Source: Pirellula staleyi DSM 6068 (GTDB lineage Bacteria; Planctomycetota; Planctomycetia; Pirellulales; Pirellulaceae). From it: a stretch of 32,000 bases of DNA. Under the pieces are notes generated by a model. It was not told the DNA's origin. It did not search any database and was given only the letters and a program-made list of their open reading frames with translations. The stretch spans positions 5,520,001-5,552,000 of the forward strand of contig CP001848.1 of assembly GCA_000025185.1 (NCBI GenBank), read 5' to 3'. A program made the translations under genes and the position numbers. This document shows, one piece after another, positions 11,078 through 26,744 of the stretch (the first letter of the stretch is position 1; the number at the start of each line of letters is the position of its first letter).

Positions 11078-11133
11078 CGGCATTGCAGCGGCGTAAAGCC
11101 TCCCCTTTCCACCTTTCTCGACGCGATTCTCTT

Positions 11134-11172
11134 GCGGCTGCGCCCTCTTCCTCTGCAGCCGCTTGCTTTTCA
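11134..11172 (+). terminator. Rho-independent terminator after the hydrolase gene
   Basis: GCGGCTGC (11134-11141) pairs with GCAGCCGC (11155-11162), 13-nt loop, followed by TTGCTTTTCAT. Confidence 0.6.
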
Positions 11173-11241
11173 TACTTGAGGCGTGGCCCGCCGCTCGCGC
11201 GGGCCGCCATCCAGTTCCTCTCTCGCCTCGAGGCTCAGATT

Positions 11242-13077: not shown

Positions 13078-14001
13078 TCAGCTGGCAAAAATCTTATCCA
13101 TGCGGGCTGCGACATCGGTCAGCCACTCGCGATCGCCGCCAGGAATTTCGGCCGTTCCCCAGCCACTCGTGAAGCCCACCTTCTTGAGTTCGGCCATCAC
13201 CTTGGGGAAGTCGGAATCTCCTTCGAGCAGTTTGGCGGCGAAACCTTTGCCGAGCGACTCCCCTTCGGCCACTTTCTTATAGTCCTTGATGTCGAGCTTC
13301 TTGATCCGTTTGCCAAGAATCGGCACCCACTCGGCTGGAGGCGAATAGCGGACCGTGTTGCCGATGTCGAAGTATGAACCGACGCGCGACGATTCGCAGG
13401 CGTCGATGAAGTCGGCCATCTGCTGCGGCGCGACAAGGAAATCGTTCCAGACGTTTTCGATGAGGATGTCGATCCCCATTTCGTCGGCCAGTCCGGTCAC
13501 TTTCTTGATCTCAGCGACACTGCGCTCGAACGCTTGCTCGTAGGTGGCGTCGGCGGTGACGCGACCGGGAACCAGCAGCACGCTGGTGCCGCCAATATCT
13601 TTGCTGAACTTCATGGCGGTCTTGAGCGCTTCGAGCCCCTCGGCACGCACGTCGGGATTGGGGTCCGAGAGACGCTTGTTCCAGTGGACCGAATCGACGA
13701 CACCGGGGACTTCGAGCCCCGTTTCGTCCTTGGCCTTCAGCACCTCTTCGACAGTTAAGGGGCCGGGGCTATCGAGTTCGACACCGTCGAATCCGAGTTC
13801 CTTGAGGAGCTTGAACTTGTCGAGCACGCTGCCGGGAACCTGAACCATGTACCATTTCACAGCCTTCCTGAAGCCCGGCATTTTGTCCTCAGCAGCGGCA
13901 AATGGCGAAGAAAAGAGCGAAGAGCCGGCGAGGGTGGCAGCGGCAGCTCCGGCGAGGAAGTGACGACGCGAAAGTGCAGCGGGTGCGTGATCGGAGTTCA
14001 T
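13078..14001 (-). CDS. Tat-exported sugar phosphate isomerase/epimerase (xylose-isomerase-like TIM barrel)
   Basis: Twin-arginine signal MNSDHAPAALSRRHFLAGAAAATLAGS. GFDGVEL, a candidate IENVWN metal-site motif, and YFDIGN are typical of the AP-endonuclease 2 / xylose-isomerase-like family. Confidence 0.85.
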   Translation of the reverse strand: MNSDHAPAALSRRHFLAGAAAATLAGSSLFSSPFAAAEDKMPGFRKAVKWYMVQVPGSVLDKFKLLKELGFDGVELDSPGPLTVEEVLKAKDETGLEVPGVVDSVHWNKRLSDPNPDVRAEGLEALKTAMKFSKDIGGTSVLLVPGRVTADATYEQAFERSVAEIKKVTGLADEMGIDILIENVWNDFLVAPQQMADFIDACESSRVGSYFDIGNTVRYSPPAEWVPILGKRIKKLDIKDYKKVAEGESLGKGFAAKLLEGDSDFPKVMAELKKVGFTSGWGTAEIPGGDREWLTDVAARMDKIFAS

Positions 14002-14017
14002 AAGCCTTGCGTTTTCG

Positions 14018-14045
14018 AAGCGGAACAGATTTTAAAAGCGGAACA
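14018..14045 (+). repeat. Exact 10-nt direct repeat AAGCGGAACA x2 (14018-14027, 14036-14045) in a divergent promoter region
   Basis: Read directly from the sequence. 18-nt period. The first copy starts 17 nt from the isomerase start codon. Each copy contains GGAAC. Confidence 0.6.
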
Positions 14046-14318
14046 CAAAAGAAGGTTCGCCGTGGTGGTCGCGGAGAGGCGCGGAGAGAAGCTGACAGCA
14101 AAAGCGAGACTCGAAATATACTCGCCCGCTGTGGTCGCATTCAACCCAAACGTCTCCGCCGTCGGCTTTTGGGTGGCGGCTGGGGGCTCGAAAGTTCACC
14201 CCAGGGGAAAGTTGGTCGCGAGCGCGACAACGATCGGATAAACTTTGACCGACTCCACGGGAGCCGCTTCCCTGAGCGCTCTTTATCCCCACACTCTCCC
14301 TGCTTTGCAGATTTCACC

Positions 14319-15638
14319 ATGCCGATCACGCTCCCCCGTTGGTTCACCGGCCGCTTCCAAGTTACGCGTCTCGTTTTGATCGCCGCTGGACTGCTCCCAT
14401 CCCTGGGCTGCATCAATTCGTACTCCGAAACCACAACGGCCCCAAGTCCAGTCGCCTCCACCGAGGTCGCGGCGAAAGACAAGCCAGCCCCTTCAGCCGC
14501 TGCTGATGCCGAGCAGCGCCAACCGGTCGCCCAGGCCCCGCGCGTGCTGAGCGACGCCGATCTAGCGGCTGGCTGGATCGCCCTGTTCGATGGCGAGACC
14601 TTATTTGGCTGGAAGGCTTACAGCAAAGCGAACTGGGCCGTGAAGGAGGGGGCCATCACTGTTTCTGAAGGTGAAAAGGGGCTCCTCTGCACGCACGTGC
14701 AATTTTCCGACTACGAGTTGCGGCTCGACTACCAAGCGACCCCCGAGACCAACAGCGGCATTTTTCTGCGCACTCCCACGGTGGCTGAACTCGAGGATGT
14801 GACAACCCGCTGCTATGAGCTGAACATCGCCCCGCCATCGAACGGTTTTCCGACCGGCAGCCTCGTGGGCCGCGAAAAAGCGGAAGGAATTGTGACCGAC
14901 AATGCATGGCACACGCTGCATGTGACGTTGCTGGGCGACAAAGTGACGGTGAAGCACGACGACAAGGAGCTGTATACCTACACCGACAAGATGCCCCCCG
15001 GACGAGGCTATATCGGGCTGCAACTCAACTCCGGCGCGATCGCTTTCAAGAATGTGCATCTGAAGCCACTGGCGCTTGCGCCAATTTTTAACGGCAAGGA
15101 TCTAACTGGATGGTCGCAGCCCGAGGGGTCGAAGAGCGAGTTCAGTGTCAGCGAGGATGGACTGCTGAAGGTGAAGAATGGGCGGGGAGCGCTCGAGAGC
15201 GACGGCGCCTACGGCGATTTTGTCCTGCAACTGGAGTGCATGACGCACGCCAAAGAGCTGAACAGCGGCATTTTCTTCCGGTCGATTCCGAAGGAACTAA
15301 CCAACGGCTACGAGAGCCAAATTCACAACGGCTATAAAAACGGCGATCGGACCCAGCCGGTCGATCATGGAACCGGCGCGATCTTTCGTCGCGTGAATGC
15401 CCGGCTCGTCGTGGCCGACGATCTCGCCTGGCTTTACAAAACCGTGGTAGCCGATGGGGCCAATATCGAGGTGTGGGTGAACGGCTATCCGGTCACCGCC
15501 TGGACCGACGAGCGCAAGGCCGATAAAAACCCGCGCAATGGCCTGCGAACCGAAGCTGGCACGCTGCAGATCCAAGGACACGACCCCACGACCGATCTCT
15601 CGTTTCGCAACATCAAGATCGCCGAACTGCGAAAGTAG
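14319..15638 (+). CDS. Lipoprotein with two DUF1080 (3-keto-disaccharide hydrolase-like, concanavalin-type) domains
   Basis: ORF 14007..15638, start at ATG 14319 (MPITLPRWFTGRFQVTRLVLIAAGLLPSLGC). Two repeats of the pattern LF.G..L.GW......W.V..G.......L.....Y.DF.L..........NSGIF.R........IAFKN / LSFRNI. Confidence 0.85.
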   Translation: MPITLPRWFTGRFQVTRLVLIAAGLLPSLGCINSYSETTTAPSPVASTEVAAKDKPAPSAAADAEQRQPVAQAPRVLSDADLAAGWIALFDGETLFGWKAYSKANWAVKEGAITVSEGEKGLLCTHVQFSDYELRLDYQATPETNSGIFLRTPTVAELEDVTTRCYELNIAPPSNGFPTGSLVGREKAEGIVTDNAWHTLHVTLLGDKVTVKHDDKELYTYTDKMPPGRGYIGLQLNSGAIAFKNVHLKPLALAPIFNGKDLTGWSQPEGSKSEFSVSEDGLLKVKNGRGALESDGAYGDFVLQLECMTHAKELNSGIFFRSIPKELTNGYESQIHNGYKNGDRTQPVDHGTGAIFRRVNARLVVADDLAWLYKTVVADGANIEVWVNGYPVTAWTDERKADKNPRNGLRTEAGTLQIQGHDPTTDLSFRNIKIAELRK

Positions 15639-17760: not shown

Positions 17761-17968
17761 CGTCGCTTTTCTCTACTTTTTTTCTAAGAAATCGTCGTCG
17801 CCTGTTGAAGAGCCGTGCGGGGTCGTGCTCTAGCGCATGTTCTACGTCACCCGCGCTGAACTTGCCAGCGCACATCGCCTGGTCGATGATAGACCAACCC
17901 AGTGCCCCCGCAAAAGTGATTCGCTCGGCGGCGTCAGTTCTTCCCTTGTCACCCTTGAAGGTCCTTGT

Positions 17969-18628
17969 ATGGCCTCGTCGCGCACTTCTCCCGTGCCTAA
18001 GCCCCGCACGCCTCGGTTTACCCTCGCCGGCATCGCTACGCTGGCGGCGATCCTGGTCGTCATGTTCGTGCTCGATCGGGCCGGGATCGTGCAGGTGAAC
18101 TGGGGAAAATTCGATCAGCTCCTCACTTCTGCACCTGAGGATCCCGCCGCCGACGACGCTTCGGCCGACAGCAGCGTCGACGACCAGCTTGATGCTACGC
18201 CCGAAACTACCACGCAGAAGCGTCCCAACGTCCGTACGATCGAGAAGTCAAAGCCGCTCGAGAAACCGGCCCCGACGCCTCCTCCCAGCACCGAGCGCGA
18301 CAGCCAACTGACGACGCTGATCGAGGATGTGACGATCACCGATCAATCGGGGCGAGTGGTTTTTCGGGGCGATGTCGATCTCTCGGAAACCCTCGAGCGG
18401 ATCGATCGCGGGGAAGAATTGCCGCAATATCGCAACGACGGAATCGTGTTCCAAAATCGCGAGCGCCGGCTCCCGAGCAAACGACGGGGGCACTATCGCG
18501 AATGGGTCCACCCGACGCCACGCCTCGGCGGCCCTGGCCCGCAGCGGATCGTTTCGGGTGAAGATGGGGAACGCTACTACACAGCCGACCATTACGAAAC
18601 GTTCCAGCGCCTCGATCGGGCCGATTAG
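17969..18628 (+). CDS. Membrane-anchored guanyl-specific ribonuclease (RNase Sa / N1-T1-barnase superfamily)
   Basis: ORF 17837..18628, start at ATG 17969 (MASSRTSPVPKPRTPRFTLAGIATLAAILVVMFVL = one TM). The C-terminus DGIVFQNRERRLPSKRRGHYREWVHPTP....GPQRIVSGEDGERYYTADHYETFQRLD aligns with RNase Sa DGVVFQNRESVLP..YYHEYTVITP..GTRRIICGE...YYTGDHYATFSLID. Confidence 0.9.
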   Translation: MASSRTSPVPKPRTPRFTLAGIATLAAILVVMFVLDRAGIVQVNWGKFDQLLTSAPEDPAADDASADSSVDDQLDATPETTTQKRPNVRTIEKSKPLEKPAPTPPPSTERDSQLTTLIEDVTITDQSGRVVFRGDVDLSETLERIDRGEELPQYRNDGIVFQNRERRLPSKRRGHYREWVHPTPRLGGPGPQRIVSGEDGERYYTADHYETFQRLDRAD

Positions 18629-18744
18629 AGCGCAGCTCACGCACTAGCCAACGGCCACGCACTCGATCGATAGACGCTCCCTTGCATCCCTCGACACCAA
18701 TCTCGCCCCACCAATCACGACTTTCGCCACGAGACTTCCCACGC

Positions 18745-19125
18745 ATGTTTGTCTACCGCGATACGGCTGATGATTCTGCTGAATCGAGCTCCGAAGCGAG
18801 CCGCGACAAGTTCGTGGCCCGTTTACCCGCCGGGCTCCGTAGTAAGCAGAAGTTGCTGCGGGCCCTCGCCACGAAACTTCAGCTCCCCCACTACTTCGGG
18901 CAAAACTGGGACGCGCTCGAAGAATGTCTGGCCGATTTTTCTTGGTTCCCGCAGAAAAAAATCGAGCTCGTGCATGCCGACCTGCCGCTCTACACCGGGG
19001 GCGATCAACTCGGGATTTATTTGAGTGTTCTGGCCTCCGCTTGCGAGCGCTGCGAGCGGTTAACGGTGATCTTTCCCACCTCGGCGAGGCAGGAGGTTGA
19101 AGAGACCCTCGCCGGCGAGCGATAA
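18745..19125 (+). CDS. Barstar-family ribonuclease inhibitor (cognate immunity protein)
   Basis: ORF 18682..19125, start at ATG 18745. LPHYFGQNWDALEECLADFSW matches the barstar core LPEYYGENLDALWDCLTG. Located immediately downstream of the RNase gene. Confidence 0.85.
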   Translation: MFVYRDTADDSAESSSEASRDKFVARLPAGLRSKQKLLRALATKLQLPHYFGQNWDALEECLADFSWFPQKKIELVHADLPLYTGGDQLGIYLSVLASACERCERLTVIFPTSARQEVEETLAGER

Positions 19126-19289: not shown

Positions 19290-20555
19290 ATGACAGCCCC
19301 CGCCTGCGAGCAGCTGCCCGACAGCCAGCGGATTGTGATTACCGGCATCGGACTCACTTCTCCTAACGGCAACAACCTGACGGAGTTCCGTGCAGCTCTG
19401 CTGGCCGGCAAGAGCGGCGTGGTGCAGTACGAAATCCGCTACGTCGGCGACACACTGGCCGGTGTTTGCTCGTTCGACGCCCTCCGCTATCAGTCGAAAA
19501 AAGATATCCGCCGCGGCACCCGCGCAGGCAGCGTGGCGATCTACGCCTGCAACGAGTCGGTGCGTGATGCGGGGATCGATTTGGCCGCCATCGACCGCTC
19601 GAAAGTCGGTATCTATCTTGGAGTTACCGAGCACGGCAACGTCGAAACCGAGAACGAAATCTACGCCCTCAAAGGGTACGACTACGACGTCACTTACTGG
19701 TCGCACCACCATAATCCCCGCACCGTCGCTAACAATCCGGCGGGCGAAGCGGCCCTCAACATGGGGATCACCGGTCCGCACTACACCATCGGCGCCGCTT
19801 GTGCCGCTGGCAATGCAGGGCTGGTGCAAGGGGCACAGATGCTCCGCCTGGGGGACTGCGATCTCGCCCTGGCTGGTGGTGTGAGCGAAAGCATTCACAC
19901 TTTCGGCATTTTTGCGAGCTTCAAGAGCCAAGGGGCACTCGCCACCCACACCGATCCGACCAAGGCTTCCCGCCCGTTCGACGTCGCTCGTAACGGCATC
20001 GTCGTCGCCGAAGGAGGCTGTGTCTTCACGCTCGAGCGGCTGAGTGATGCCAAAGCCCGCGGCGCAAAGATCTATGCCGAACTGGCTGGCTACGCCATCA
20101 ACACCGACGCCACCGATTTCGTCCTCCCGAACCCCGAGCGGCAGGCAGAGTGCGTCGAACTGGCCCTGAAACGTGCCGGACTCACCGCGAGCGATATTGA
20201 TATCGTCAGCACCCACGCCACTGGCACCGGCCAAGGGGACACGCAGGAATGCGAAGCCCTACGCAAAGTCTTCGCTTCCAGCAACCGCACGCACTTTAAC
20301 AACACCAAGAGCTTCATCGGTCACGCGATGGGGGCTGCTGGCGCCCTGGAACTGGCAGGCAACTTGCCATCGTTTGTCGATGGCATCTGCCACCCCACGA
20401 TTAACGTTGACGAGCTCGACCCCGATTGTGCACTCACCACCCTCGTCTCGGGCACACCTCGCGAAATCGGCAAAGTTCGTTATATTTTGAATAACTCGTT
20501 TGGCATGCTTGGCATAAACTCGGTGGTGATCGTCGCTCGCTATGACGACAAGTGA
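19290..20555 (+). CDS. Beta-ketoacyl-ACP synthase I/II family (FabF/FabB-like elongating KAS)
   Basis: ORF 19173..20555, start at ATG 19290 (MTAPACEQLPDSQRIVITGIGLTSPNG). Cys-His-His triad contexts GAACAAG, STHATGT and GHAMGAAG. Confidence 0.9.
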   Translation: MTAPACEQLPDSQRIVITGIGLTSPNGNNLTEFRAALLAGKSGVVQYEIRYVGDTLAGVCSFDALRYQSKKDIRRGTRAGSVAIYACNESVRDAGIDLAAIDRSKVGIYLGVTEHGNVETENEIYALKGYDYDVTYWSHHHNPRTVANNPAGEAALNMGITGPHYTIGAACAAGNAGLVQGAQMLRLGDCDLALAGGVSESIHTFGIFASFKSQGALATHTDPTKASRPFDVARNGIVVAEGGCVFTLERLSDAKARGAKIYAELAGYAINTDATDFVLPNPERQAECVELALKRAGLTASDIDIVSTHATGTGQGDTQECEALRKVFASSNRTHFNNTKSFIGHAMGAAGALELAGNLPSFVDGICHPTINVDELDPDCALTTLVSGTPREIGKVRYILNNSFGMLGINSVVIVARYDDK

Positions 20556-20605
20556 TCCGCCGCTGAACTGAACCTTATCGACCGTTTTTCGGAGACTGGC
20601 ATTTC

Positions 20606-20866
20606 ATGACTCCCGCTGAAATCCGCGAGGAAATCCTCGACATTCTGTCCGACATTGCCCCCGATGAGGATCTCAGCGGACTGGTCGATGAAAAAGCGTT
20701 TCGCGAACAGCTCGAACTCGACAGCATGGACTTCCTCGATATCGTGATGGAACTCCGCAAGCGCCATCGCATTCAGATTCCCGAAGAAGACTATAAGAAT
20801 CTCGCGAGCATGCATTCCACCGTCACCTATCTTGAACCCAAGATGAAGGACATCGTGAAGAAGTAG
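20606..20866 (+). CDS. Acyl carrier protein (dedicated, non-AcpP type)
   Basis: 86 aa. Phosphopantetheine attachment context ELDSMDFLDIV. Small acidic 4-helix pattern. Confidence 0.85.
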   Translation: MTPAEIREEILDILSDIAPDEDLSGLVDEKAFREQLELDSMDFLDIVMELRKRHRIQIPEEDYKNLASMHSTVTYLEPKMKDIVKK

Positions 20867-20978
20867 GAGCCGCGAGTTTCTGGGCGACCGCTGGCGAAGA
20901 AATTCCCCGCCGTCGCCAGCGACTCCCTTGTTGCTCGCTGCGATGCTCTCTCGCTTCCGATATTGCGAGCCACCGGCT

Positions 20979-22448
20979 ATGACCGCTTCCGATACGCCGC
21001 CCGCCGCGAGCCCCAGCGAGTCGACCGCTCCCGCACTTGCGACCACGATTGACGGCAAAAACGCCTACGACACCATTATCATCGGCGCCGGGATGTCGGG
21101 CCTCGCTGCCGGCATTCGCCTGGCCTACTACGACCAAAAAGTGTGCGTCCTCGAGCGTCACACCACCATCGGCGGCCTGAACTCTTTCTACCGCCTCCGG
21201 GGTCGCGACTACGATGTCGGCCTGCATGCCCTCACCAATTTCACCCCCCGCGGCGCGAAAAAAGGGCCTCTCGCGCGGCTGCTTCGACAGCTCCGCTTTC
21301 AGTGGGACGATTTCGCCCTCGCACCCCAAATCGGGTCGAGCATCGCCTTCCCCGGCGTGCAGCTGAAGTTCAACAACGATCCCGCGCTCCTCGAAGCCGA
21401 AATCGCTGCCCGCTTTCCTCATCAAAAAGATCACTACCAAAAGCTCCTCGGAAAAATTGTCGACTACGACGATCTGAACCAAGAGCTATTCGAACTTTCG
21501 GCCCGCACCGTCCTGGCCGAAACCATCACCGATCCGCTGCTGATCGAAATGCTCCTCTGCCCCCTCATGTGGTACGGCAACGCCCGTGAAGACGACATGG
21601 ACTGGGGTCAGTTTTGCATCATGTTTCGCAGCATCTTCCTGGAAGGAATGGCGCGGCCCCATGCCGGCGTTCGTCTGATTCTGAAGACGCTAGTGAAACG
21701 TTTTCGCGAACTCGGTGGTCAGCTCAAGCTGCGCAGCGGCGTGAAACGGATCCTCACCGACGGCCATCGCGCTGTGGGGGTCGAACTCGAGAATGGCGAG
21801 CACCTCACCGCCCGCAACATTCTTTCGTCGGCCGGTTCGGTGGAAACGATGCGGATGTGCGACGACGTCCCTCGACTCGCCCCCGATAAAGCGGGGCAGC
21901 TCAGCTTTTGCGAGTCGATCAGCATCCTGGCGAAAGAACCCAAATCGCTCGGCCACGACCGCACGATTGTGTTCTACAACGACAGCGAAAAATTTCACTG
22001 GCGACGCCCCACGAGCGACCTCTGCGATGTTCGGACCGGTGTCGTCTGCTCGCCGAACAATTTTGAATATGCCGCCAGCGATGCGCCGCTCGCCGATGGC
22101 GTGGTCCGCATCACCGCCATTGCCGACTTCGGCCGCTGGCAAACGCTCACCCCCGACGAGTATCGCCTCGCGAAGCTCCGCTGGTACGATCGACTGGTCG
22201 CCTCCGCCGTCCGTTTTGTTCCCGACTATCGCAGCCAGGTGATCGACACCGACATGTTCACCCCCAACACGATCCGCCGCTTCACCTGGCACGACAACGG
22301 CGCGGTTTACGGGGCCCCTCAGAAAAAACTCGACGGCCGCACCCATCTCGATGGGTTGTTTTTGTGCGGCACCGACCAAGGATATGTCGGCATCATCGGC
22401 TCGATCATGAGTGGCATCGGCATGGCCAACATGCACTGCCTCAAATAG
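20979..22448 (+). CDS. NAD(P)/FAD-dependent oxidoreductase, phytoene-desaturase (CrtI)/amine-oxidase family, copy 1
   Basis: ORF 20928..22448, start uncertain (ATG 20979 chosen). Dinucleotide fold YDTIIIGAGMSGLAAGIRLA..KVCVLERHTTIGG. C-terminal GLFLCGTDQ..GIIGSIMSG is typical of the family. Confidence 0.8.
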   Translation: MTASDTPPAASPSESTAPALATTIDGKNAYDTIIIGAGMSGLAAGIRLAYYDQKVCVLERHTTIGGLNSFYRLRGRDYDVGLHALTNFTPRGAKKGPLARLLRQLRFQWDDFALAPQIGSSIAFPGVQLKFNNDPALLEAEIAARFPHQKDHYQKLLGKIVDYDDLNQELFELSARTVLAETITDPLLIEMLLCPLMWYGNAREDDMDWGQFCIMFRSIFLEGMARPHAGVRLILKTLVKRFRELGGQLKLRSGVKRILTDGHRAVGVELENGEHLTARNILSSAGSVETMRMCDDVPRLAPDKAGQLSFCESISILAKEPKSLGHDRTIVFYNDSEKFHWRRPTSDLCDVRTGVVCSPNNFEYAASDAPLADGVVRITAIADFGRWQTLTPDEYRLAKLRWYDRLVASAVRFVPDYRSQVIDTDMFTPNTIRRFTWHDNGAVYGAPQKKLDGRTHLDGLFLCGTDQGYVGIIGSIMSGIGMANMHCLK

Positions 22449-22543
22449 CAGCGGCAGAACACTCGCCGATCGTTCCGGCCCCGGCTCCCGCTTGATCGCT
22501 GAGCCTCGTCAGCACCATTTCCAGCTAGAACCATTTTTCAGAT

Positions 22544-23989
22544 ATGCCAAAAGACTTTCTCAAAGATGCCCGCGATGAGTACGACGTGGTCGTGATCGGC
22601 AGCGGTCTCGCGGGGCTCACAGCTGCGAATATCTTGGGCCGCGCTGGCTATCGCGTGATGCTCGCCGAACAGCACTACAAACTCGGCGGCATGGCCACCT
22701 GGTTCAAACGTCCCGGCGGTCACATCTTCGACGTTTCGCTCCACGGCTTTCCCTACGGCATGATCAAATCGTGTCGCCGCTACTGGACCAAGGAAATCGC
22801 CGACTCGATCGTACAGCTCAAAGCGATTCGCTTCGACAACCCGATGTTCTCGCTCACCACGAGCTACGATCGCGAGGACTTCACGAATTTGCTCACCACC
22901 AAGTTTGGCATCGCGCCACAAACGGTGAATGACTTTTTCGATGCCGCGCGAAACATGAATTTCTACGACGATCAGTCGATGACCACCGGTCAGCTGTTCG
23001 AGCGATTCTTTCCCGGTCGCCAAGATGTGGTCCGGCTGTTGATGGAGCCGATTGTCTACGCCAACGGCAGCACGCTTGAAGACCCCGCCATCACCTACGG
23101 CATCGTCTTTTCGAACTTCATGTCCAAAGGGGTCTTCACGTTCGAAGGGGGAACCGATCGCCTCGTCGAGCTGATGCATCAAGACCTGCTCAAAAGCGGC
23201 GTCGATGTCCGAATCAAATGCAACGTCGAAAAAATCAATGTCGAGCAAGGCTCGGTCCGAAGCGTGCAAATCAATGGCCGGACGATCAAGACGCGCGCAG
23301 TGGTTTCGAATTCGAACTTGAAGGCCACGATTCTGAAGCTCGTGGGGCCTGAACATTTCGATCGAAAGTTTCTCGACGACACGCAAGCGGTGCGGCTCAA
23401 CAACAGCAGCACCCAGGTCTACATCGGCATGAAACCGGACGAGCTGATCGACGAGAGCATGGGAGATCTGTTCTTCACGTCGACCGCCAAAGAGTTTCGG
23501 ACCGATCTGCTCCTCAGCCGCGATGTCACGAGCCGGACCTACTCGTTTTATTATCCGCGCACTCGTCCGCAAGGACGTCCCCGCTGCTTGATCGTGTCGA
23601 GCACCAACGCTCACTACAGCGACTGGGCCACGCTCGACGAAGCAGCGTACGAAGCGAGCAAACAAGAGCTGATCGAGAGTACGCTCGACCATCTCGATCA
23701 GTACGTGCCGAACATTCGCCAGCGGCTCGATCACGTCGAAGCTTCGACCCCCAAGACGTTTCAGCACTACACAGCGCATGTCGAAGGGGCCAGCTTTGGG
23801 ACCAAGTTCGAGGGGCTGGCTGTCAGCCGCGCGCTCCCCGAGCAAGTGCGCGGGCTCTATCACGCGGGAAGTGTCGGCATCATCATGTCGGGCTGGCTCG
23901 GCGCGATTAATTATGGGGTGATCGTCGCCAGCAGCGTCGATGCGCAGCTCATGAAAGCTCCCGACACCTCGGCGACGGTCGAGCTGTAG
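22544..23989 (+). CDS. NAD(P)/FAD-dependent oxidoreductase, phytoene-desaturase (CrtI)/amine-oxidase family, copy 2
   Basis: [38 protein letters not shown]-terminal [18 protein letters not shown]. The minus-strand ORF 22538..23863 is a codon-aligned shadow. Confidence 0.8.
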
Positions 23990-24034
23990 CGATCCCCTTT
24001 TTCACTTCCCCCTTTTGCCTCGAGATACTCTCCG

Positions 24035-24466
24035 ATGACGCTCGCTCAAATCCATGCTGCGATCCCTCACCGCCCGCCGATGCTGCTCGTCGACGAGGTT
24101 GTTTTGTGGGAGCCCGAGCGGATTGTTTGTAAAAAAACGCTCTCGGGGGAGGAGTTCTTTTTTCAAGGTCACTACCCAGGCTTTCCGCTGATGCCGGGGG
24201 TGATGATGTGCGAAGCGAGCTTGCAAACCGGGGCTGTGCTGATGAGCAAAATCCATCCCGACGATGGATCGGGAGGAGTTCCGGTCGCCACTCGCTTAAA
24301 CGACGTGAAATTCAAGCGAATGGTTCGGCCGGGTGACACGATCGAAATCGACGTGAAGCTCGACGAGCGTTTGGGGGATGCTTACTTCCTGTCGTCGAAG
24401 GTCACCTGTGGCGGCAAAGTGACCGCGACGCTGTCGTTTGCCGTGACGATCACCAAGGTGGCTTAA
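24035..24466 (+). CDS. fabZ: 3-hydroxyacyl-ACP dehydratase, FabZ family
   Basis: IPHRPPMLLVDEVV...FFFQGHYPGFPLMPGVMMCEASLQTG aligns with E. coli FabZ LPHRYPFLLVDRV...[24 protein letters not shown] (catalytic His and Glu present). Confidence 0.9.
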   Translation: MTLAQIHAAIPHRPPMLLVDEVVLWEPERIVCKKTLSGEEFFFQGHYPGFPLMPGVMMCEASLQTGAVLMSKIHPDDGSGGVPVATRLNDVKFKRMVRPGDTIEIDVKLDERLGDAYFLSSKVTCGGKVTATLSFAVTITKVA

Positions 24467-25273
24467 ATGGACTTCCTCAAGCTCAGCGGAAAGCGGTTTT
24501 TGATTTTCGGTGTCGCCAACAAAAAAAGTGTCGCGGCGGCGATCACCAAATCACTTCTCGAATGTGGCAGTCTGGTGACGCTGGTGGTGCGCAGCGTAGC
24601 GCGGCGCGAACAAGTTGCCAAGCTCTTTCCGGCGTGCGAAGTGCTGGTCTGTGACGTCGAGTTCGAAGATCAAATCGCGCAGCTAGCTGCCGAACTTTCG
24701 TCGCGTGAAGAAGTATTCGACGGCTTAGTGCATTCGCTCGCCTTTGCCGACTACAGCGACGGGATGAAGCCGTTTCACGAGACGCCCAAAAAGGCGTTTT
24801 TGCAGGCGGTTGATATCTCGTGCTACTCGCTCACCGCTCTTTGCAACGCGCTGAAAAACAAGCTCGCCCACGATGCGTCGGTCGTGACGATTTCGATCAG
24901 CACGACGAAGATGGCGAGCGAGAACTACGGCTATATGGCGCCGATTAAAGCGGCGCTCGATTCGTCGATTGCGTTCCTTACCAAGTCGTTCAGCCGATTT
25001 TCCAAAGTCCGCTTCAACACAGTCTCTCCGGGACTGCTGAAGACGAGCGCGTCGGCGGGGATCCCCGGGTATGTCGATTCGTACTTGTACGCCGAGCAAG
25101 TGATTCCGCGAAAAAAGGCGGTCGAGACGCAGGAAGCGGCCGATGTGGCGGTGTTTTTGCTCAGCCCACGTTCAAGCGGCATCGTGGCGCAGTCGCTGGT
25201 GGTCGATGCCGGCATGAGCATCAATTATTTCGACGCCGACATCATCAGCCGCGCGATGAAGAGCGAGTCGTAG
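24467..25273 (+). CDS. fabI: Enoyl-ACP reductase, FabI-type SDR
   Basis: [48 protein letters not shown] (Tyr-x6-Lys), [18 protein letters not shown]. Collinear with E. coli FabI. The ATG directly abuts the fabZ TAA (gcttaaATG). Confidence 0.85.
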
Positions 25274-25315
25274 CAAGCTTGACCAGTGCAGTGATTTTGT
25301 CCGGTGCAGCCGGAG

Positions 25316-25340
25316 CTACGACTTCGTTTATCGATCAATG
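25316..25340 (+). repeat. Direct repeat copy 1: CTACGACTTCGTTTATCGATCAATG
   Basis: Exact 25-nt match to 25516-25540, exactly 200 nt downstream. Confidence 0.95.
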
Positions 25341-25358
25341 TCAGGCGTTTTAGGGTGC

Positions 25359-25377
25359 CACTGGCATTTTGCCAGTG
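25359..25377. other. Hairpin H1 (CACTGGCA-ttt-TGCCAGTG)
   Basis: 8-bp perfect stem. It begins 43 nt after the start of direct-repeat copy 1. Confidence 0.8.
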
Positions 25378-25440
25378 CAGAAGCTGGAACCGATGTTTTG
25401 GGCAAAATCTGTCTGAAACATAGAACCTATTTACACTTCT

Positions 25441-25459
25441 CACTGGGCAGAGCCCAGTG
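25441..25459. other. Hairpin H2 (CACTGGGC-aga-GCCCAGTG)
   Basis: 8-bp perfect stem with the same CACTG...CAGTG core as H1 and H3. Confidence 0.8.
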
Positions 25460-25488
25460 GCACACTGGATGGAAGCCTGCTTATTGCT

Positions 25489-25513
25489 GCCTGACATTGA
25501 TCGTTAGACGAAG
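25489..25513 (-). repeat. Inverted copy of the repeat head (pairs with 25322-25346)
   Basis: GCCTGACATTGATCG (25489-25503) is the exact reverse complement of CGATCAATGTCAGGC (25332-25346). Extending the arms to 25 nt gives 23/25 complementarity, with 142 nt between them. Confidence 0.9.
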
Positions 25514-25515
25514 CA

Positions 25516-25540
25516 CTACGACTTCGTTTATCGATCAATG
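25516..25540 (+). repeat. Direct repeat copy 2: CTACGACTTCGTTTATCGATCAATG
   Basis: Exact match to copy 1. With the adjacent inverted copy it forms a palindrome, arms 25495-25513 and 25522-25540 (17/19), with an 8-nt spacer. Confidence 0.95.
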
Positions 25541-25558
25541 CCACGCAAAACTGGGTGG

Positions 25559-25581
25559 CACTGCTGGCTTGTCCAGCAGTG
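25559..25581. other. Hairpin H3 (CACTGCTGG-cttgt-CCAGCAGTG)
   Basis: 9-bp perfect stem. It begins 43 nt after the start of direct-repeat copy 2, the same offset as H1. Confidence 0.8.
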
Positions 25582-25664
25582 TGCAAAGCGAAGAAGCCCA
25601 AACTGTTTTGAGCTGCGCCAAGTACAGCCACACCGTCGCACCTAGGCTTAGCGCAGGTCAAGAT

Positions 25665-26744
25665 CTACGGAGAGACTAAAGCGGTTTTGCGGCGGGTGGA
25701 GAGGGTCGTTTGCCAGTCGACCGCCATCATCAGGCAGTTGATTCCTGAACCGATGCCGAGCCACGCCACGCGGTCGCCACGCGTCACAAAGTTCTCTTCG
25801 ACCGCGAGTGCCATGGCGAGTGGCAAAGCGACACTACCGGTGTTTCCCATCCAAGGAAACGTGGCGTAGTCGCGCTCCGCTGCCAGACCGAGCGACTGGA
25901 GCATCCGCGTGCGATGCGCGCCGCCAACCTGGTGGCAAATCGATTTGCTGATCACGTCGCGCGTGAGGCTGAGTTCGGCGAGAAAGTCGTCGAATGTCTC
26001 CCGGCCGGTTTCAAGCCCAGCGATGAGTAGCCGTTCGGAGTCGGTTTGCATCAGGATCGAATTGCCCGACTCCACTCCCCCTTCGCAAAGTTGATAGTGC
26101 TCGGTGTGAGCCCGGGCGGCGAAGCCGAGGAGCTTATTGCCGGTTCGGCTCAGCTTCTCGTGGACGAGAACGGCAGCGACACTGCCGGAACCGATCGTCA
26201 GGGAAGCGAACGCTGGTTTCACCGACTCGCGGGTGAGGGACTCGTTTCGATTGAGTTCGGCAATGGTGCTTTCCAGCAGCGAGCGCGAGTCTTCACTGCC
26301 GACGACAATGCCGGCGTCGATCTGTCCGATTTCGATCATCGTGGCAACTTGCGCTACGCCACTCAGGATGCCGAGACAGGCGTTCGACAAATCGTGGACG
26401 AGGCATTTTTTGGGAAGTCCCAGATTGTGGTGAACCCGGGCGGCTGTGGCCGGTTCGAGATAGTCGCGGCATACGCTGCCGTGAATGAGGACGCCGATGC
26501 GCGCGGGATCGACCCCTGTTTCGCGAATTGCATCGAGCCCGCTGGCGATGCTGTGATCGCTGGGCCGAGTTCCCCGGGGCCAGAGCCGACGCTCGCGAAT
26601 CCCCGACATCAGTTCGAGCCGACCTTCGGGCAACCGAAGCCGGCTGTAGAGGGGCGCAAGCTGCCGCTCGATCTCGTCGCTGGAGATCGTTTCGGGGGGG
26701 AGCGAATAGCCAAAACCTTCGAGACACACCTTTTGATAGCGCAT
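25665..26744 (-). CDS. 3-oxoacyl-ACP synthase III family (FabH-like initiating KAS)
   Basis: ORF 25665..26855, start at ATG 26744 (MRYQKVCLEGFGYSLPPETISSDEIE). Cys-His-Asn contexts DLSNACLGILSG, HQVGGAH and MGNTGSVALP. Confidence 0.85.
   Translation of the reverse strand: MRYQKVCLEGFGYSLPPETISSDEIERQLAPLYSRLRLPEGRLELMSGIRERRLWPRGTRPSDHSIASGLDAIRETGVDPARIGVLIHGSVCRDYLEPATAARVHHNLGLPKKCLVHDLSNACLGILSGVAQVATMIEIGQIDAGIVVGSEDSRSLLESTIAELNRNESLTRESVKPAFASLTIGSGSVAAVLVHEKLSRTGNKLLGFAARAHTEHYQLCEGGVESGNSILMQTDSERLLIAGLETGRETFDDFLAELSLTRDVISKSICHQVGGAHRTRMLQSLGLAAERDYATFPWMGNTGSVALPLAMALAVEENFVTRGDRVAWLGIGSGINCLMMAVDWQTTLSTRRKTALVSP

What the first reader, a model, noticed from the sequence alone, without database searches (positions are those of the whole stretch)
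19290..26744. Stand-alone FAS-II-like operon with two CrtI/amine-oxidase-family flavoproteins and no ketoreductase
Six co-directional genes are separated by gaps of 50, 112, 95, 45 and 0 nt. They encode an elongating KAS (intact Cys-His-His), a dedicated ACP (ELDSMDF), two divergent FAD Rossmann proteins of the phytoene-desaturase/amine-oxidase type, FabZ and FabI. A FabH-like KAS III (Cys-His-Asn) converges on the 3' end. Housekeeping FAS II operons (fabH-fabD-fabG-acpP-fabF) contain no such flavoproteins. This cassette lacks FabG, FabD, and any thioesterase or acyltransferase. The gene mix suggests that an ACP-bound acyl chain is built and then oxidised, desaturated or isomerised by the flavoproteins into a specialised unsaturated or polyene-type lipid. 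The chemistry is not predictable from the sequence. Established context: comparative-genomic proposals for ladderane lipids in anammox Planctomycetes invoked FAS II genes clustered with phytoene-desaturase-like and radical SAM genes, and no radical SAM gene is present here. The flavoenzyme FabX of Helicobacter pylori, an unrelated fold, shows that flavin-dependent desaturation on acyl-ACP exists. The product and role of this cassette are unassigned as far as I can tell from the sequence alone.
Basis: partly seen in the sequence, partly recalled or inferred. Interest (0 to 1): 0.75.

Follow-up and report, generated by a model that had tools for sequence, protein, structure and literature searches.

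The report
Fatty-acid cassette wired to olefin genes
A conserved set of fatty-acid-building genes with two carotenoid-desaturase-like flavoproteins in Pirellula staleyi sits next to, and in relatives inside, the gene set that joins two fatty chains into long hydrocarbons, so it probably makes the unsaturated chains for the polyunsaturated C31 hydrocarbon of planctomycetes by a route not yet described.

Summary
Window 19290-25273 (Pirellula staleyi DSM 6068) encodes, co-directionally, an elongating KAS, a dedicated ACP, two distantly related CrtI-fold flavoproteins (FL1, FL2; 20% identical), FabZ and FabI. A thiolase gene converges on the 3' end.

The main correction is that the convergent "FabH-like KAS III" is an OleA homolog. 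OleA performs the head-to-head Claisen condensation that starts olefin biosynthesis. The window protein has the OleA-specific Glu-Pro as well as Cys/His/Asn.

In relatives the cassette is embedded in ole genes:
- oleC-oleD-KAS-ACP-FL1-FL2-fabZ-fabI converging on oleA, in two metagenome contigs.
- oleD directly upstream of the KAS in about half of the informative Pirellulales genomes.
- KAS-ACP-FL1-oleB-oleC-oleD in a Bacteriovoracaceae MAG.

The cassette behaves as two modules (KAS-ACP-FL1 and FL2-FabZ-FabI). It occurs in at least four phyla and carries its own FabG in Nitrospinota. It scores below the cut-offs for housekeeping FAS II and for all carotenoid enzyme families.

Best explanation (confidence about 0.55): a dedicated type II synthase makes unsaturated acyl chains for OleABCD. 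It takes the place that the Pfa PUFA synthase holds in Shewanella and Geobacter, and the end product is n-C31:9. The flavoprotein chemistry (isomerase or dehydrogenase) is not resolved. I found no description of this link in the papers searched.

The parts
19290..20555 (+). Elongating beta-ketoacyl-ACP synthase (cassette KAS). Divergent FabF-type with an intact Cys-His-Lys-His set. It carries the family signature NSFGMLGIN where FabF has NSFGFGGTN.
   Evidence: Pfam ketoacyl-synt N and C domains. TIGR03150 fabF scores 296 bits against a cut-off of 494. Orthologs are 71-82% identical across Pirellulales and 58-70% identical in Nitrospinota, Opitutaceae and Bacteriovoracaceae. The motif is conserved across phyla.
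20606..20866 (+). Dedicated acyl carrier protein (86 aa). The phosphopantetheine-attachment Ser lies in ELDSMDF.
   Evidence: PP-binding, E 9e-6. The best AcpP models score 39 bits against cut-offs of 66-84. The gene lies directly upstream of FL1 in 57 of 76 informative Pirellulales loci and in Bacteriovoracaceae, Opitutaceae, Nitrospinota and Thermoguttaceae loci.
20979..22448 (+). Flavoprotein FL1. CrtI/amine-oxidase fold with FAD-binding motifs. Family signature GLHAxTN.
   Evidence: Amino_oxidase plus NAD_binding_8. Best named model is carot_isom, 101 bits against a cut-off of 587. AF2 model pLDDT 87.6. The nearest solved folds are 4rep and 4dgk (CrtI family), TM 0.56-0.70 at 17-20% identity. 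The family has 331 clusters (50% identity) at E<=1e-30.
22544..23989 (+). Flavoprotein FL2, a distant paralog of FL1 (20% identity) with the CrtI/amine-oxidase fold.
   Evidence: Amino_oxidase, E 9e-20. CrtD model 110 bits against 550, and crtI_fam 86.5 against 238. FL1 versus FL2 gives E 5e-14 at 20% identity. The listed orthologs are 78-92% identical across Pirellulales. FL2 is paired with FL1 in Nitrospinota, Thermoguttaceae and L087.
24035..24466 (+). FabZ-type 3-hydroxyacyl-ACP dehydratase with the His (GHYPG) and Glu (CEA) motifs.
   Evidence: FabA-like domain. fabZ models score 106 bits, just under the cut-offs of 113 and 155. The best solved relatives are the anammox amxFabZ structures 7QV0 and 8AYB-D at 71-75 bits, only marginally above canonical FabZ at 71 bits. 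The amxFabZ Ile69 position is Ala here.
24467..25273 (+). FabI-type enoyl-ACP reductase. Its start codon abuts the fabZ stop codon.
   Evidence: adh_short_C2, E 9e-54. FabI equivalog models score up to 160 bits against cut-offs of 299-477. The Tyr-x6-Lys motif (NYGYMAPIK) is read.
25274..25664 (.). Convergent intergenic spacer (391 nt) between the 3' ends of fabI and oleA. It contains a terminator-like hairpin for the minus-strand gene.
   Evidence: Terminator-like site on the minus strand at 25614-25595. This is a consensus match only.
25665..26744 (-). OleA homolog, a thiolase-superfamily enzyme for head-to-head Claisen condensation.
   Evidence: NCBIfam PRK09258 scores 466 bits against a cut-off of 285. 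Full-length match to the Xanthomonas OleA structures 3FK5, 3ROW, 4KU5 and others, E 2e-56 and 33% identity, while the best FabH scores 66 bits. Glu97-Pro (equivalent to Glu117), Cys123, His271 and Asn301 are invariant with XcOleA. The Glu-Pro is the OleA hallmark (PMC7064751).

Best explanation
The six-gene cassette is a dedicated type II acyl-chain synthase that supplies the olefin (Ole) pathway.

Proposed steps:
1. The KAS elongates a chain held on the cassette's own ACP. Keto-reduction comes from a FabG encoded inside the cassette in other phyla, and in Pirellulales is presumably supplied in trans.
2. FabZ dehydrates and FabI reduces.
3. The two CrtI-fold flavoproteins act on the ACP-bound intermediates, so that some double bonds are kept or introduced without oxygenase chemistry.
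4. The resulting unsaturated acyl thioesters are condensed head-to-head by the adjacent OleA.
5. OleD, OleC and OleB, encoded next to the cassette in relatives, process the product into a long-chain polyolefin. The most likely product is the n-C31:9 hydrocarbon typical of planctomycetes.

On this reading the cassette is the type II functional counterpart of the Pfa PUFA synthase, which supplies 16:4n-3 to OleABCD in Shewanella and Geobacter.

Shown: gene identities, the OleA assignment, and the physical linkage to oleA, oleB, oleC and oleD across lineages.
Inferred: that the cassette's product is the OleA substrate, that it is polyunsaturated, and what the flavoproteins do. My preferred guess is that they are enoyl isomerases (2-trans to 3-cis, and 2-trans to 2-cis) standing in for the FabA-like DH domains of PfaC. 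The alternative is allylic or alpha,beta dehydrogenases.
For: (1) The convergent gene is OleA-type. PRK09258 scores 466 bits, above its cut-off. It aligns over its full length to the Xanthomonas OleA structures, with the essential Glu-Pro, Cys, His and Asn conserved.

(2) Ole genes lie on both sides of the cassette in relatives.
- L110 and L120 carry oleC-oleD-KAS-ACP-FL1-FL2-fabZ-fabI converging on oleA.
- L063 carries oleC (603 bits to the Xanthomonas olefin beta-lactone synthetase model; PRK09274 703 against a cut-off of 478), an unassigned ORF, oleD (376 bits to 2-alkyl-3-oxoalkanoate reductase) and then the whole cassette.
- oleD sits directly upstream of the KAS on the same strand in 20 of 43 informative Pirellulales genome loci, and somewhere upstream in 28.
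- oleA converges on fabI in 9 of 48 informative metagenome loci seeded with OleA, often across unrelated inserted genes.

(3) An independent arrangement exists in another phylum. A Bacteriovoracaceae locus (L083) carries KAS-ACP-FL1-oleB(haloalkane-dehalogenase-like)-oleC-oleD as one co-directional run.

(4) The position matches the pfa genes. In Geobacter bemidjiensis the order pfaDABC-oleABCD-pfaE is tandem, and C31:9 is thought to come from two 16:4n-3 chains (PMC4882568).

(5) n-C31:9 is reported in the Pirellulales member Lacipirellula and is 'often present in planctomycetes' (PMC6995999, PMC3327967). The 2011 survey of pfa-like clusters lists only Gemmata and P. limnophilus among planctomycetes, and no Pirellula-group or Opitutaceae genome (PMC3098273).

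(6) Rattray et al. found polyunsaturated hydrocarbons in pfa-less Desulfotalea, which has FAS II clusters with amine-oxidase-like genes (PMC2649909).

(7) The cassette is not housekeeping and not carotenoid-related.

(8) There is precedent for a phytoene-desaturase-like enzyme acting on fatty acyl chains: UfaD (PMC7380195).
Against: - No lipid or genetic data exist for P. staleyi. Its oleB, oleC and oleD are not in the window, and I could not read the rest of the genome.
- The cassette also occurs with no ole gene within 10 kb: Nitrospinota L089, Thermoguttaceae L088, L086 and L087. L087 carries a PlsC-like acyltransferase instead, which hints at a membrane fatty acid product.
- Most OleA-seeded loci (39 of 48) show no cassette nearby.
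- OleB was not found next to the cassette in Pirellulales.
- The OleC and OleD homologs score below NCBIfam's equivalog cut-offs.
- Where the cassette lacks FabG, the 'OleD' upstream of the KAS could instead be the cassette's ketoreductase.
- FabI in the cassette argues that many cycles are fully reduced.
- Flavin-dependent desaturation at unactivated carbons is chemically difficult.
- Much of the linkage within Pirellulales may reflect shared ancestry rather than independent events.
Confidence: 0.55

Rival explanations
1. The cassette is a specialised elongation/modification system for membrane or lipid A fatty acids. Candidate products are the (omega-1)-hydroxy C28-C35 monounsaturated or cyclopropyl acids of planctomycetes, or another unusual unsaturated fatty acid. 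On this view the proximity to ole genes only reflects loose clustering of lipid genes.
For: Lacipirellula contains (omega-1)OH-C28 to C35:1 omega-11 acids as well as C31:9. In L087 the cassette lies beside a PlsC-like acyltransferase, MAT and PPTase, with no ole genes. The cassettes in Nitrospinota and Thermoguttaceae have no ole gene within 10 kb. FabI implies largely saturated chains. The ACP's closest solved relatives include the meromycolate-extension AcpM.
Against: Four different ole genes are found adjacent to cassette modules, in three different arrangements and two phyla. One of these is a single co-directional run, KAS-ACP-FL1-oleB-oleC-oleD. No hydroxylase, acyltransferase or lipid A gene is conserved next to the cassette in Pirellulales.
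Confidence: 0.2
2. The cassette is an oxygen-independent route to ordinary monounsaturated membrane fatty acids. It would be a functional analog of FabA/FabB, FabM, FabN/FabO plus FabI, or FabX. The flavoproteins would make or isomerise one double bond, and the KAS would elongate the cis-enoyl intermediate.
For: The proteins are extremely conserved, with FL2 78-92% identical among the listed Pirellulales homologs and the KAS 58-70% identical between phyla. In some genomes the genes are scattered among housekeeping genes such as nusA and dnaA. Enterococcus clusters fabI with the unsaturated-fatty-acid genes fabN and fabO (abstract of PMC9671860 listed). FabX shows that flavin-dependent unsaturated fatty acid synthesis on acyl-ACP exists (my own knowledge).
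Against: The ACP is dedicated and not AcpP-like. Distribution across bacteria is patchy. The main unsaturated acids of Pirellulales are 18:1 omega-9 and 16:1 omega-7, which fits an aerobic delta-9 desaturase (my own knowledge). This rival does not explain the recurrent fusion with oleB, oleC, oleD and oleA.
Confidence: 0.1
3. The Ole-like enzymes and the cassette make a non-olefin head-to-head product, for example a beta-lactone or a 2-alkyl-3-hydroxy (mycolic-acid-like) lipid.
For: No oleB was found next to the cassette in any Pirellulales locus. oleACD clusters without oleB are thought to make beta-lactones (PMC7064751). The OleC and OleD homologs are divergent and score below their equivalog cut-offs.
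Against: The Bacteriovoracaceae operon includes a haloalkane-dehalogenase-like OleB candidate. Planctomycetes are documented producers of n-C31:9. ole genes are often dispersed in these genomes.
Confidence: 0.08
4. The flavoproteins are carotenoid or other isoprenoid desaturases or isomerases that happen to be co-located with fab genes.
For: The best named model hits are the carotenoid isomerase and CrtD families, and the nearest solved folds are CrtI-family enzymes.
Against: All carotenoid models score 4- to 10-fold below their cut-offs. Identity to CrtI structures is 17-20%. No carotenoid gene appears in any of roughly 170 neighbourhoods. Instead ACP-FL1 and FL2-FabZ adjacency is conserved across phyla. 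The anammox homolog-class proteins did not complement crtI (PMC4790861).
Confidence: 0.03

Closest known systems
Pfa (polyketide-type PUFA) synthase coupled to OleABCD, as in Shewanella oneidensis and Geobacter bemidjiensis (pfaDABC-oleABCD-pfaE)
   Same: A dedicated KS/ACP/KR/DH/ER machinery is encoded next to ole genes. It is thought to deliver an unsaturated acyl chain (16:4n-3) to OleA for n-C31:9 (PMC4882568; PMC3098273). In L110, L120 and L063 the cassette occupies the same position relative to oleA, oleC and oleD.
   Different: Here the proteins are discrete type II enzymes, not multidomain megasynthases. There are no tandem ACPs and no FabA-like DH/isomerase domains. Two CrtI-fold flavoproteins are present, which Pfa systems lack.
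OleA of Xanthomonas campestris (PDB 3ROW, 4KU5 and others) and the OleABCD olefin pathway
   Same: The window gene 25665-26744 aligns end to end with OleA at 33% identity. It keeps Cys143, His285, Asn315 and the Glu117-Pro that defines OleA.
   Different: The published oleA genome contexts are oleABCD, oleA with an oleBC fusion, and oleACD (PMC7064751). Here oleA converges on a FAS-II/flavoprotein cassette, and oleB, oleC and oleD are absent from the window.
Anammox and Desulfotalea extended FAS II clusters with phytoene-desaturase-like genes (kuste3603-3608, kuste3335-3352; DP1860, DP2405, DP2406). Proposed to encode a novel anaerobic PUFA route and ladderane precursors (Rattray 2009; Javidpour 2016; Dietl 2023).
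   Same: A dedicated ACP, FabZ and FabF-type KAS are clustered with amine-oxidase/CrtI-like flavoproteins. The window FabZ's top solved relatives are the amxFabZ structures. Desulfotalea makes polyunsaturated hydrocarbons without pfa genes.
   Different: The window has no radical SAM, SAM methyltransferase or non-canonical KAS gene. FabZ lacks the amxFabZ Ile69 signature (Ala instead). The anammox cluster functions are themselves unproven.
UfaD of Rhodobacter sphaeroides (furan fatty acid pathway)
   Same: UfaD is a phytoene-dehydrogenase-like NAD/FAD-binding protein that desaturates a fatty acyl chain next to an existing double bond (PMC7380195). It shows that this fold can act on fatty acyl substrates.
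   Different: UfaD acts on phospholipid-bound 11Me-12t-18:1 and appears to depend on O2. It is not associated with an ACP, a KAS or ole genes. Its sequence relationship to FL1 and FL2 was not tested.
FabX of Helicobacter pylori, and FabA/FabM/FabN-type isomerases
   Same: Conceptually, these are enzymes that create or reposition a double bond on acyl-ACP so that elongation yields unsaturated chains without O2.
   Different: FabX has an unrelated fold and cofactor set, and FabA, FabM and FabN are not flavoproteins (my own knowledge). The resemblance is functional only.

Membership tests
OleA (head-to-head condensing thiolase) | Catalytic Cys143, His285 and Asn315, plus the OleA-specific Glu117 followed by Pro | tested here: met
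   E97-P98, C123, H271 and N301 of the window protein are invariant in the alignment with XcOleA and two relatives. The hallmark is described in PMC7064751.
OleA (head-to-head condensing thiolase) | Closer in sequence to characterised OleA than to FabH; passes the curated family cut-off | tested here: met
   OleA structures score 189-195 bits and the best FabH 66 bits. PRK09258 scores 466 bits against a cut-off of 285. Identity to XcOleA is 33% over 344 residues.
OleA (head-to-head condensing thiolase) | Encoded with oleB, oleC or oleD | tested here: inconclusive
   None is in the window. In relatives, oleC and oleD sit at the other end of the cassette on which oleA converges (L110, L120). The rest of the P. 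staleyi genome could not be read.
OleA (head-to-head condensing thiolase) | Non-decarboxylative Claisen condensation of two long acyl thioesters | not testable with these tools
   Needs an enzyme assay.
Housekeeping FAS II (FabF / AcpP / FabZ / FabI equivalogs) | Scores above the NCBIfam equivalog cut-offs | tested here: not met
   KAS 296 against 494. ACP 39 against 66-84. FabZ 106 against 113 and 155. FabI 160 against 299-477.
Housekeeping FAS II (FabF / AcpP / FabZ / FabI equivalogs) | Is the only fab gene set of the genome | tested here: inconclusive
   This could not be checked in P. staleyi. In a Pirellulaceae relative (L035) a second FabZ-AcpP-FabF set lies 5 kb downstream. Its ACP scores 66.8 bits and passes the NF002150 cut-off of 66.
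CrtI / phytoene desaturase family (TIGR02734 and the CrtD, CrtISO, CrtO equivalogs) | Score above the family cut-off | tested here: not met
   crtI_fam scores 54.7 (FL1) and 86.5 (FL2) against 238. carot_isom scores 101 and 91 against 587. CrtD scores 47 and 110 against 550.
CrtI / phytoene desaturase family (TIGR02734 and the CrtD, CrtISO, CrtO equivalogs) | CrtI-type fold with an N-terminal FAD Rossmann motif | tested here: met
   For FL1: model pLDDT 87.6. The top Foldseek hits are 4rep and 4dgk, E about 1e-24, TM 0.56-0.70. GxGxxG and the conserved Glu are invariant. The FL2 model was too poor to use (pLDDT 65). Pfam Amino_oxidase matches it at E 9e-20.
CrtI / phytoene desaturase family (TIGR02734 and the CrtD, CrtISO, CrtO equivalogs) | Carotenoid or isoprenoid synthase genes as usual neighbours | tested here: not met
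   No such gene appears in any neighbourhood examined. The conserved neighbours are ACP, KAS, FabZ, FabI, oleD, oleC and oleA.
Pfa PUFA synthase | Multidomain PfaA-D proteins with tandem ACPs and FabA-like DH domains | tested here: not met
   All the proteins are single-domain type II enzymes. PfaA matches only the KS domain, at 81 bits against a cut-off of 1010. The claim is 'works like', not 'member of'.
Anammox amxFabZ/amxACP 'ladderane' FAS cluster | amxFabZ signature Ile69 in the substrate tunnel | tested here: not met
   The window FabZ has QTGA where amxFabZ has QASI, so Ala sits at the Ile69 position (signature from PMC10139942).
Anammox amxFabZ/amxACP 'ladderane' FAS cluster | Radical SAM or SAM methyltransferase genes and non-canonical KAS paralogs in the cluster | tested here: not met
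   None is present in the window. A B12-binding radical SAM gene does sit between the two modules in one distant homologous contig.
Anammox amxFabZ/amxACP 'ladderane' FAS cluster | Flavoproteins orthologous to kuste3607 or kuste3336 | not tested

The most novel reading that the evidence does not exclude
The cassette encodes a third, previously uncharacterised way to make polyunsaturated acyl chains. The two known ways are O2-dependent desaturases and Pfa megasynthases. This would be an oxygen-independent type II FAS in which two CrtI-fold flavoproteins do the double-bond chemistry on ACP-bound intermediates. It would be spread across Planctomycetota, Verrucomicrobiota, Nitrospinota, Bdellovibrionota and others. 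It would be the source of n-C31:9 in Pfa-less bacteria. It would also be homologous to the flavoprotein-containing FAS clusters of Desulfotalea and anammox bacteria, and so bear on the polyene precursor proposed for ladderanes.
Probability: 0.35. Interest if true: 0.85.

Novelty: new variant of a known kind. Interest (0 to 1): 0.72.

Why it matters
n-C31:9 is a widespread bacterial hydrocarbon and a chemotaxonomic marker of planctomycetes. Its only established precursor supply is the Pfa synthase, and the surveyed Pirellula-group genomes were not found to carry that synthase. A type II, flavoprotein-dependent route would fill that gap. It would assign a function to a large family annotated as 'phytoene desaturase-like' (331 clusters at E<=1e-30). 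It would turn the 2009 proposal of a novel anaerobic PUFA pathway in Desulfotalea and anammox bacteria into something testable in cultivable, aerobic organisms such as P. staleyi. It would also offer small, discrete enzymes for engineering polyunsaturated chains and hydrocarbons.

Tried and rejected
- Carotenoid role: rejected. All models are sub-threshold and no carotenoid gene is a neighbour.
- Housekeeping FAS: rejected as the main reading.
- Biotin (BioZ-like) or sphingolipid idea, prompted by a nearby aminotransferase (10999-12345): rejected. It is an ordinary class I aminotransferase. BioZ structures match the thiolase gene at only 42 bits (9j6e), against 195 bits for OleA.
- The 'epimerase' beside the KAS in Opitutaceae L085 was first read as OleD, then rejected. 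It is GalE (412 bits) and only 25% identical to the OleD homologs. The similar genes on the P0127 and P0135 contigs stay unverified because no DNA was available.
- Genes inserted between the two modules, and between fabI and oleA, were checked for further pathway members. All are unrelated: ABC transporter, NamZ, kinases, LuxR, HINT toxin. The 372-aa ORF between oleC and oleD in L063 has no family hit and is not conserved.
- Search for oleB near the cassette in Pirellulales: nothing found. The OleC look-up (P0430) gave an isolated gene.
- The attempt to show P. staleyi's own OleC by homology search did not list it among the best 120 hits.
- The first metagenome scan with the single OleA protein found nothing. 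The alignment-based scan worked.
- The promoter/terminator scan gave nothing above background.
- Sukovich et al. 2010 (PMC2893475) is not held, so its list of ole-bearing phyla is cited from memory only.

Full report
**Source and observation**

The window is from Pirellula staleyi DSM 6068. The second flavoprotein is 100% identical to an NCBI protein of that strain.

The spacers are 50, 112, 95, 45 and 0 nt. Domain and family scans confirm each assignment:
- an elongating KAS with Cys, His, Lys and His;
- an 86-aa ACP (ELDSMDF);
- two Amino_oxidase/NAD_binding_8 flavoproteins, FL1 (20979-22448) and FL2 (22544-23989);
- a FabZ with its His and Glu;
- a FabI with Tyr-x6-Lys;
- a thiolase-fold protein with Cys-His-Asn on the minus strand (25665-26744).

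The flanks are unrelated. Upstream lie an SPFH protein and a barnase-barstar pair, and downstream lies uvrB. No FabG, FabD, thioesterase or acyltransferase is in the window.

**Not housekeeping and not carotenoid**

Every cassette protein scores below the NCBIfam equivalog cut-off of its housekeeping counterpart:
- KAS 296 against 494
- ACP 39 against 66-84
- FabZ 106 against 113 and 155
- FabI 160 against 299-477

A Pirellulaceae relative (L035) has a second FabZ-AcpP-FabF set 5 kb beyond the cassette. Its ACP is 46% identical to E. coli AcpP and reaches an AcpP cut-off.

FL1 and FL2 are only 20% identical to each other. They score far below all carotenoid family cut-offs, with crtI_fam at 55 and 87 against 238. 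They hit solved CrtI-family structures only weakly by sequence.

A confident FL1 model (pLDDT 87.6) has a CrtI-type fold. The best matches are 4rep and 4dgk, with TM 0.56-0.70 at 17-20% identity. The FL2 model was poor.

**The key correction: the convergent gene is OleA**

The convergent 'KAS III' is an OleA homolog.
- It passes the PRK09258 cut-off (466 against 285).
- Its best solved relatives, over the full length at E 2e-56, are 3FK5, 3ROW, 3S21, 4KU5, 5VX* and 6B2*. I know these to be Xanthomonas OleA structures, and 4KU5 co-occurs with OleA in PMC8180931.
- The best FabH scores 66 bits.
- Identity to XcOleA is 33% over 344 residues.
- The Glu-Pro equivalent to Glu117, essential for the head-to-head Claisen condensation and diagnostic of OleA (PMC7064751), is conserved, as are Cys, His and Asn.

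**Conservation and modularity**

A profile scan of one genome per species found at least 599 FL1 relatives. The 80 best are all Pirellulales or other Planctomycetota. In them the cassette behaves as two modules, KAS-ACP-FL1 and FL2-FabZ-FabI.
- An ACP lies just upstream of FL1 in 57 of 76 informative loci.
- FL2 follows FL1 within 400 nt in 20 of 62 loci, and lies somewhere in the locus in 32 of 80.
- Where the modules are separated, the inserts are unrelated genes.
- In some Pirellula MAGs FL1 stands alone.

Orthologs are unusually conserved. Within Pirellulales the KAS is 71-82% identical and FL2 67-80% in the loci; the 120 closest FL2 homologs listed in the protein search are 78-92% identical. 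Between phyla the KAS is 58-70% identical. The KAS family carries NSFGMLGIN in place of the FabF gatekeeper motif NSFGFGGTN.

The FL1 family has 331 clusters (50% identity) at E<=1e-30. Named members come from Opitutaceae, Victivallales, Thermoguttaceae, Phycisphaerae, Bacteriovoracaceae, Nitrospinota and Chloroflexota.

In 'Ca. Nitrohelix vancouverensis' the order is KAS-ACP-FL1-FL2-FabG-FabZ-FabI. The missing ketoreductase is therefore a Pirellulales peculiarity.

An unassigned contig (L087) adds FabG, a PPTase and a MAT, and has a PlsC-like gene nearby.

**Linkage to ole genes**

(i) In a Bacteriovoracaceae MAG (L083) one co-directional run reads KAS-ACP-FL1, then three more genes:
- a haloalkane-dehalogenase-like alpha/beta hydrolase, which is the OleB type;
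- an AMP ligase that scores highest against the generic PRK09274 fatty-acid-CoA-ligase model (454 bits, just under its cut-off of 478); its best specifically named hits are the two olefin beta-lactone synthetase (OleC) models, at 339 and 322 bits;
- an extended SDR whose best hits by far are the 2-alkyl-3-oxoalkanoate reductase (OleD) models, at 340 and 310 bits.

(ii) In the Planctomycetota MAG L063 the order is oleC, an unassigned ORF, oleD, then KAS-ACP-FL1-FL2-FabZ-FabI. The oleC scores 603 bits (PRK09274 703 against 478) and the oleD 376 bits.

(iii) oleD lies immediately upstream of the KAS on the same strand in 20 of 43 informative Pirellulales loci, and somewhere upstream in 28. oleC is also there in L035, L054 and L063.

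(iv) I seeded a metagenome scan with an OleA alignment, which samples independently of the cassette. oleA converges on the fabI end of the cassette in 9 of 48 informative loci. L110 and L120 show the complete set, oleC-oleD-KAS-ACP-FL1-FL2-fabZ-fabI converging on oleA. Genes inserted between fabI and oleA are unrelated, yet the adjacency persists.

(v) A distant contig (P0127, no DNA held) shows FL2-FabZ-SDR-KASIII-alpha/beta hydrolase co-directionally.

One early reading was wrong. The 'epimerase' beside the KAS in Opitutaceae is GalE, not OleD.

**Biological context**

- n-C31:9 is reported in Lacipirellula (Pirellulales) and is said to be frequent in planctomycetes.
- It is thought to arise from two 16:4n-3 chains through OleABCD.
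- In Shewanella and Geobacter the Pfa synthase supplies those chains. Geobacter bemidjiensis carries pfaDABC-oleABCD-pfaE in tandem.
- The 2011 survey of pfa-like clusters names only Gemmata and Planctomyces limnophilus among planctomycetes. It names no Pirellula-group or Opitutaceae genome.
- Rattray et al. (2009) found polyunsaturated hydrocarbons in pfa-less Desulfotalea, whose FAS II clusters contain amine-oxidase-like genes. They proposed a novel anaerobic PUFA route shared with anammox bacteria.
- Javidpour et al. showed that the anammox homolog-class proteins do not replace CrtI.
- I found no paper that mentions both oleC/oleD and phytoene-desaturase-like genes. The 2020 survey of oleA contexts lists only the oleABCD, oleBC-fusion and oleACD types.

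**Interpretation**

The cassette most likely builds the acyl chains that OleA condenses. It stands where pfa genes stand in Geobacter.

Shown: the gene identities, the OleA assignment and the recurrent linkage to four ole genes in at least three arrangements and two phyla.

Inferred: that the product is polyunsaturated, and what the flavoproteins do.

Flavoenzymes do not readily dehydrogenate unactivated methylenes. The best named hits are carotenoid isomerases. So I favour non-redox or allylic chemistry close to the thioester. That would be 2-trans to 3-cis and 2-trans to 2-cis isomerisation of enoyl-ACP, the two activities a methylene-interrupted polyene needs. This would explain why two different flavoproteins are always paired, and why FabI is kept for the cycles that are fully reduced. 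UfaD shows that this fold can act on fatty acyl chains.

This step is speculative.

**Caveats**

- There are no lipid data for P. staleyi, and its oleB, oleC and oleD were not seen.
- The cassette also occurs without nearby ole genes.
- Most oleA loci lack the cassette.
- No oleB lies near the cassette in Pirellulales.
- The OleC and OleD homologs are below equivalog cut-offs.
- The upstream 'OleD' might double as the cassette's ketoreductase.

**Relation to the ladderane clusters**

The window FabZ's top solved relatives are the anammox amxFabZ structures (7QV0, 8AYB-D), but only marginally above canonical FabZ. The amxFabZ Ile69 signature is replaced by Ala. There is no radical SAM gene here. 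The resemblance is in gene content, and family membership is not shown.

**Verdict**

The finding becomes more specific and more interesting: a widespread, uncharacterised type II FAS/flavoprotein cassette that is physically wired to the olefin pathway. Novelty: a new variant of a known kind (the precursor supply for Ole-type hydrocarbons). There is a roughly one-in-three chance that it represents a new oxygen-independent route to polyunsaturated acyl chains.

Noticed in passing
window 17837-18628 (+) and 18682-19125 (+): A barnase-like ribonuclease and barstar inhibitor pair lies directly upstream of the KAS. Many Pirellulales relatives carry oleD (and oleC) at this position. This suggests an insertion or replacement in P. 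staleyi that split the ole genes from the cassette.
   Followed up: partly
L087:1-15900 (Logan SRR17347195 contig): An extended version of the cassette: FabG-FabZ-KAS-ACP-FL1-FL2-ACPS(PPTase)-FabI-orf325-MAT. On the other strand there is a second KS/DH/KR/DH/ER/MAT set, a PlsC-like acyltransferase and a BcrAD_BadFG/DUF2229 protein. No ole gene lies within 10 kb. The taxon is unknown.
   Followed up: partly
contig carrying P0127 (ENA ERZ1426827, no DNA held): A B12-binding radical SAM protein (DUF4070) is encoded between the KAS-ACP-FL1 and FL2-FabZ-SDR-KASIII-hydrolase modules. This recalls the radical SAM genes of the anammox and Desulfotalea clusters.
   Followed up: no
window 19290-20555; L083, L085, L089, L063: The cassette KAS is 58-70% identical across four phyla. 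It carries NSFGMLGIN (Phe to Met, Gly to Leu) where FabF has the gatekeeper motif NSFGFGGTN. This points to altered substrate gating and possibly horizontal spread.
   Followed up: partly
L035:17024-19507: A second FabZ-like, AcpP-like (46% identical to E. coli AcpP) and FabF-like gene set lies 5 kb downstream of the cassette in a Pirellulaceae MAG. The ACP ORF appears to be extended at its C-terminus or frameshifted.
   Followed up: partly
L047:9128-10600 and L082:10001-11368: FL1 homologs stand alone beside housekeeping genes: nusA-infB in a Pirellula MAG, and dnaA/comEC in an unnamed 3.4-Mb genome. In some lineages the system is fully dispersed.
   Followed up: no
window 24035-24466: The FabZ has the motif QTGA in its central helix. 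The tunnel glycine is shifted by one position relative to canonical FabZ (QxxG), and Ala sits at the position of amxFabZ Ile69.
   Followed up: partly
window 13078-15638: An AP_endonuc_2 (xylose-isomerase-like TIM barrel) gene and a large 3-keto-disaccharide hydrolase gene lie upstream. A 3-keto-disaccharide hydrolase also sits between oleA and fabI in L120, and an AP_endonuc_2 gene sits between the modules on the P0127 contig. These families are abundant in planctomycetes, so this is probably coincidence.
   Followed up: no
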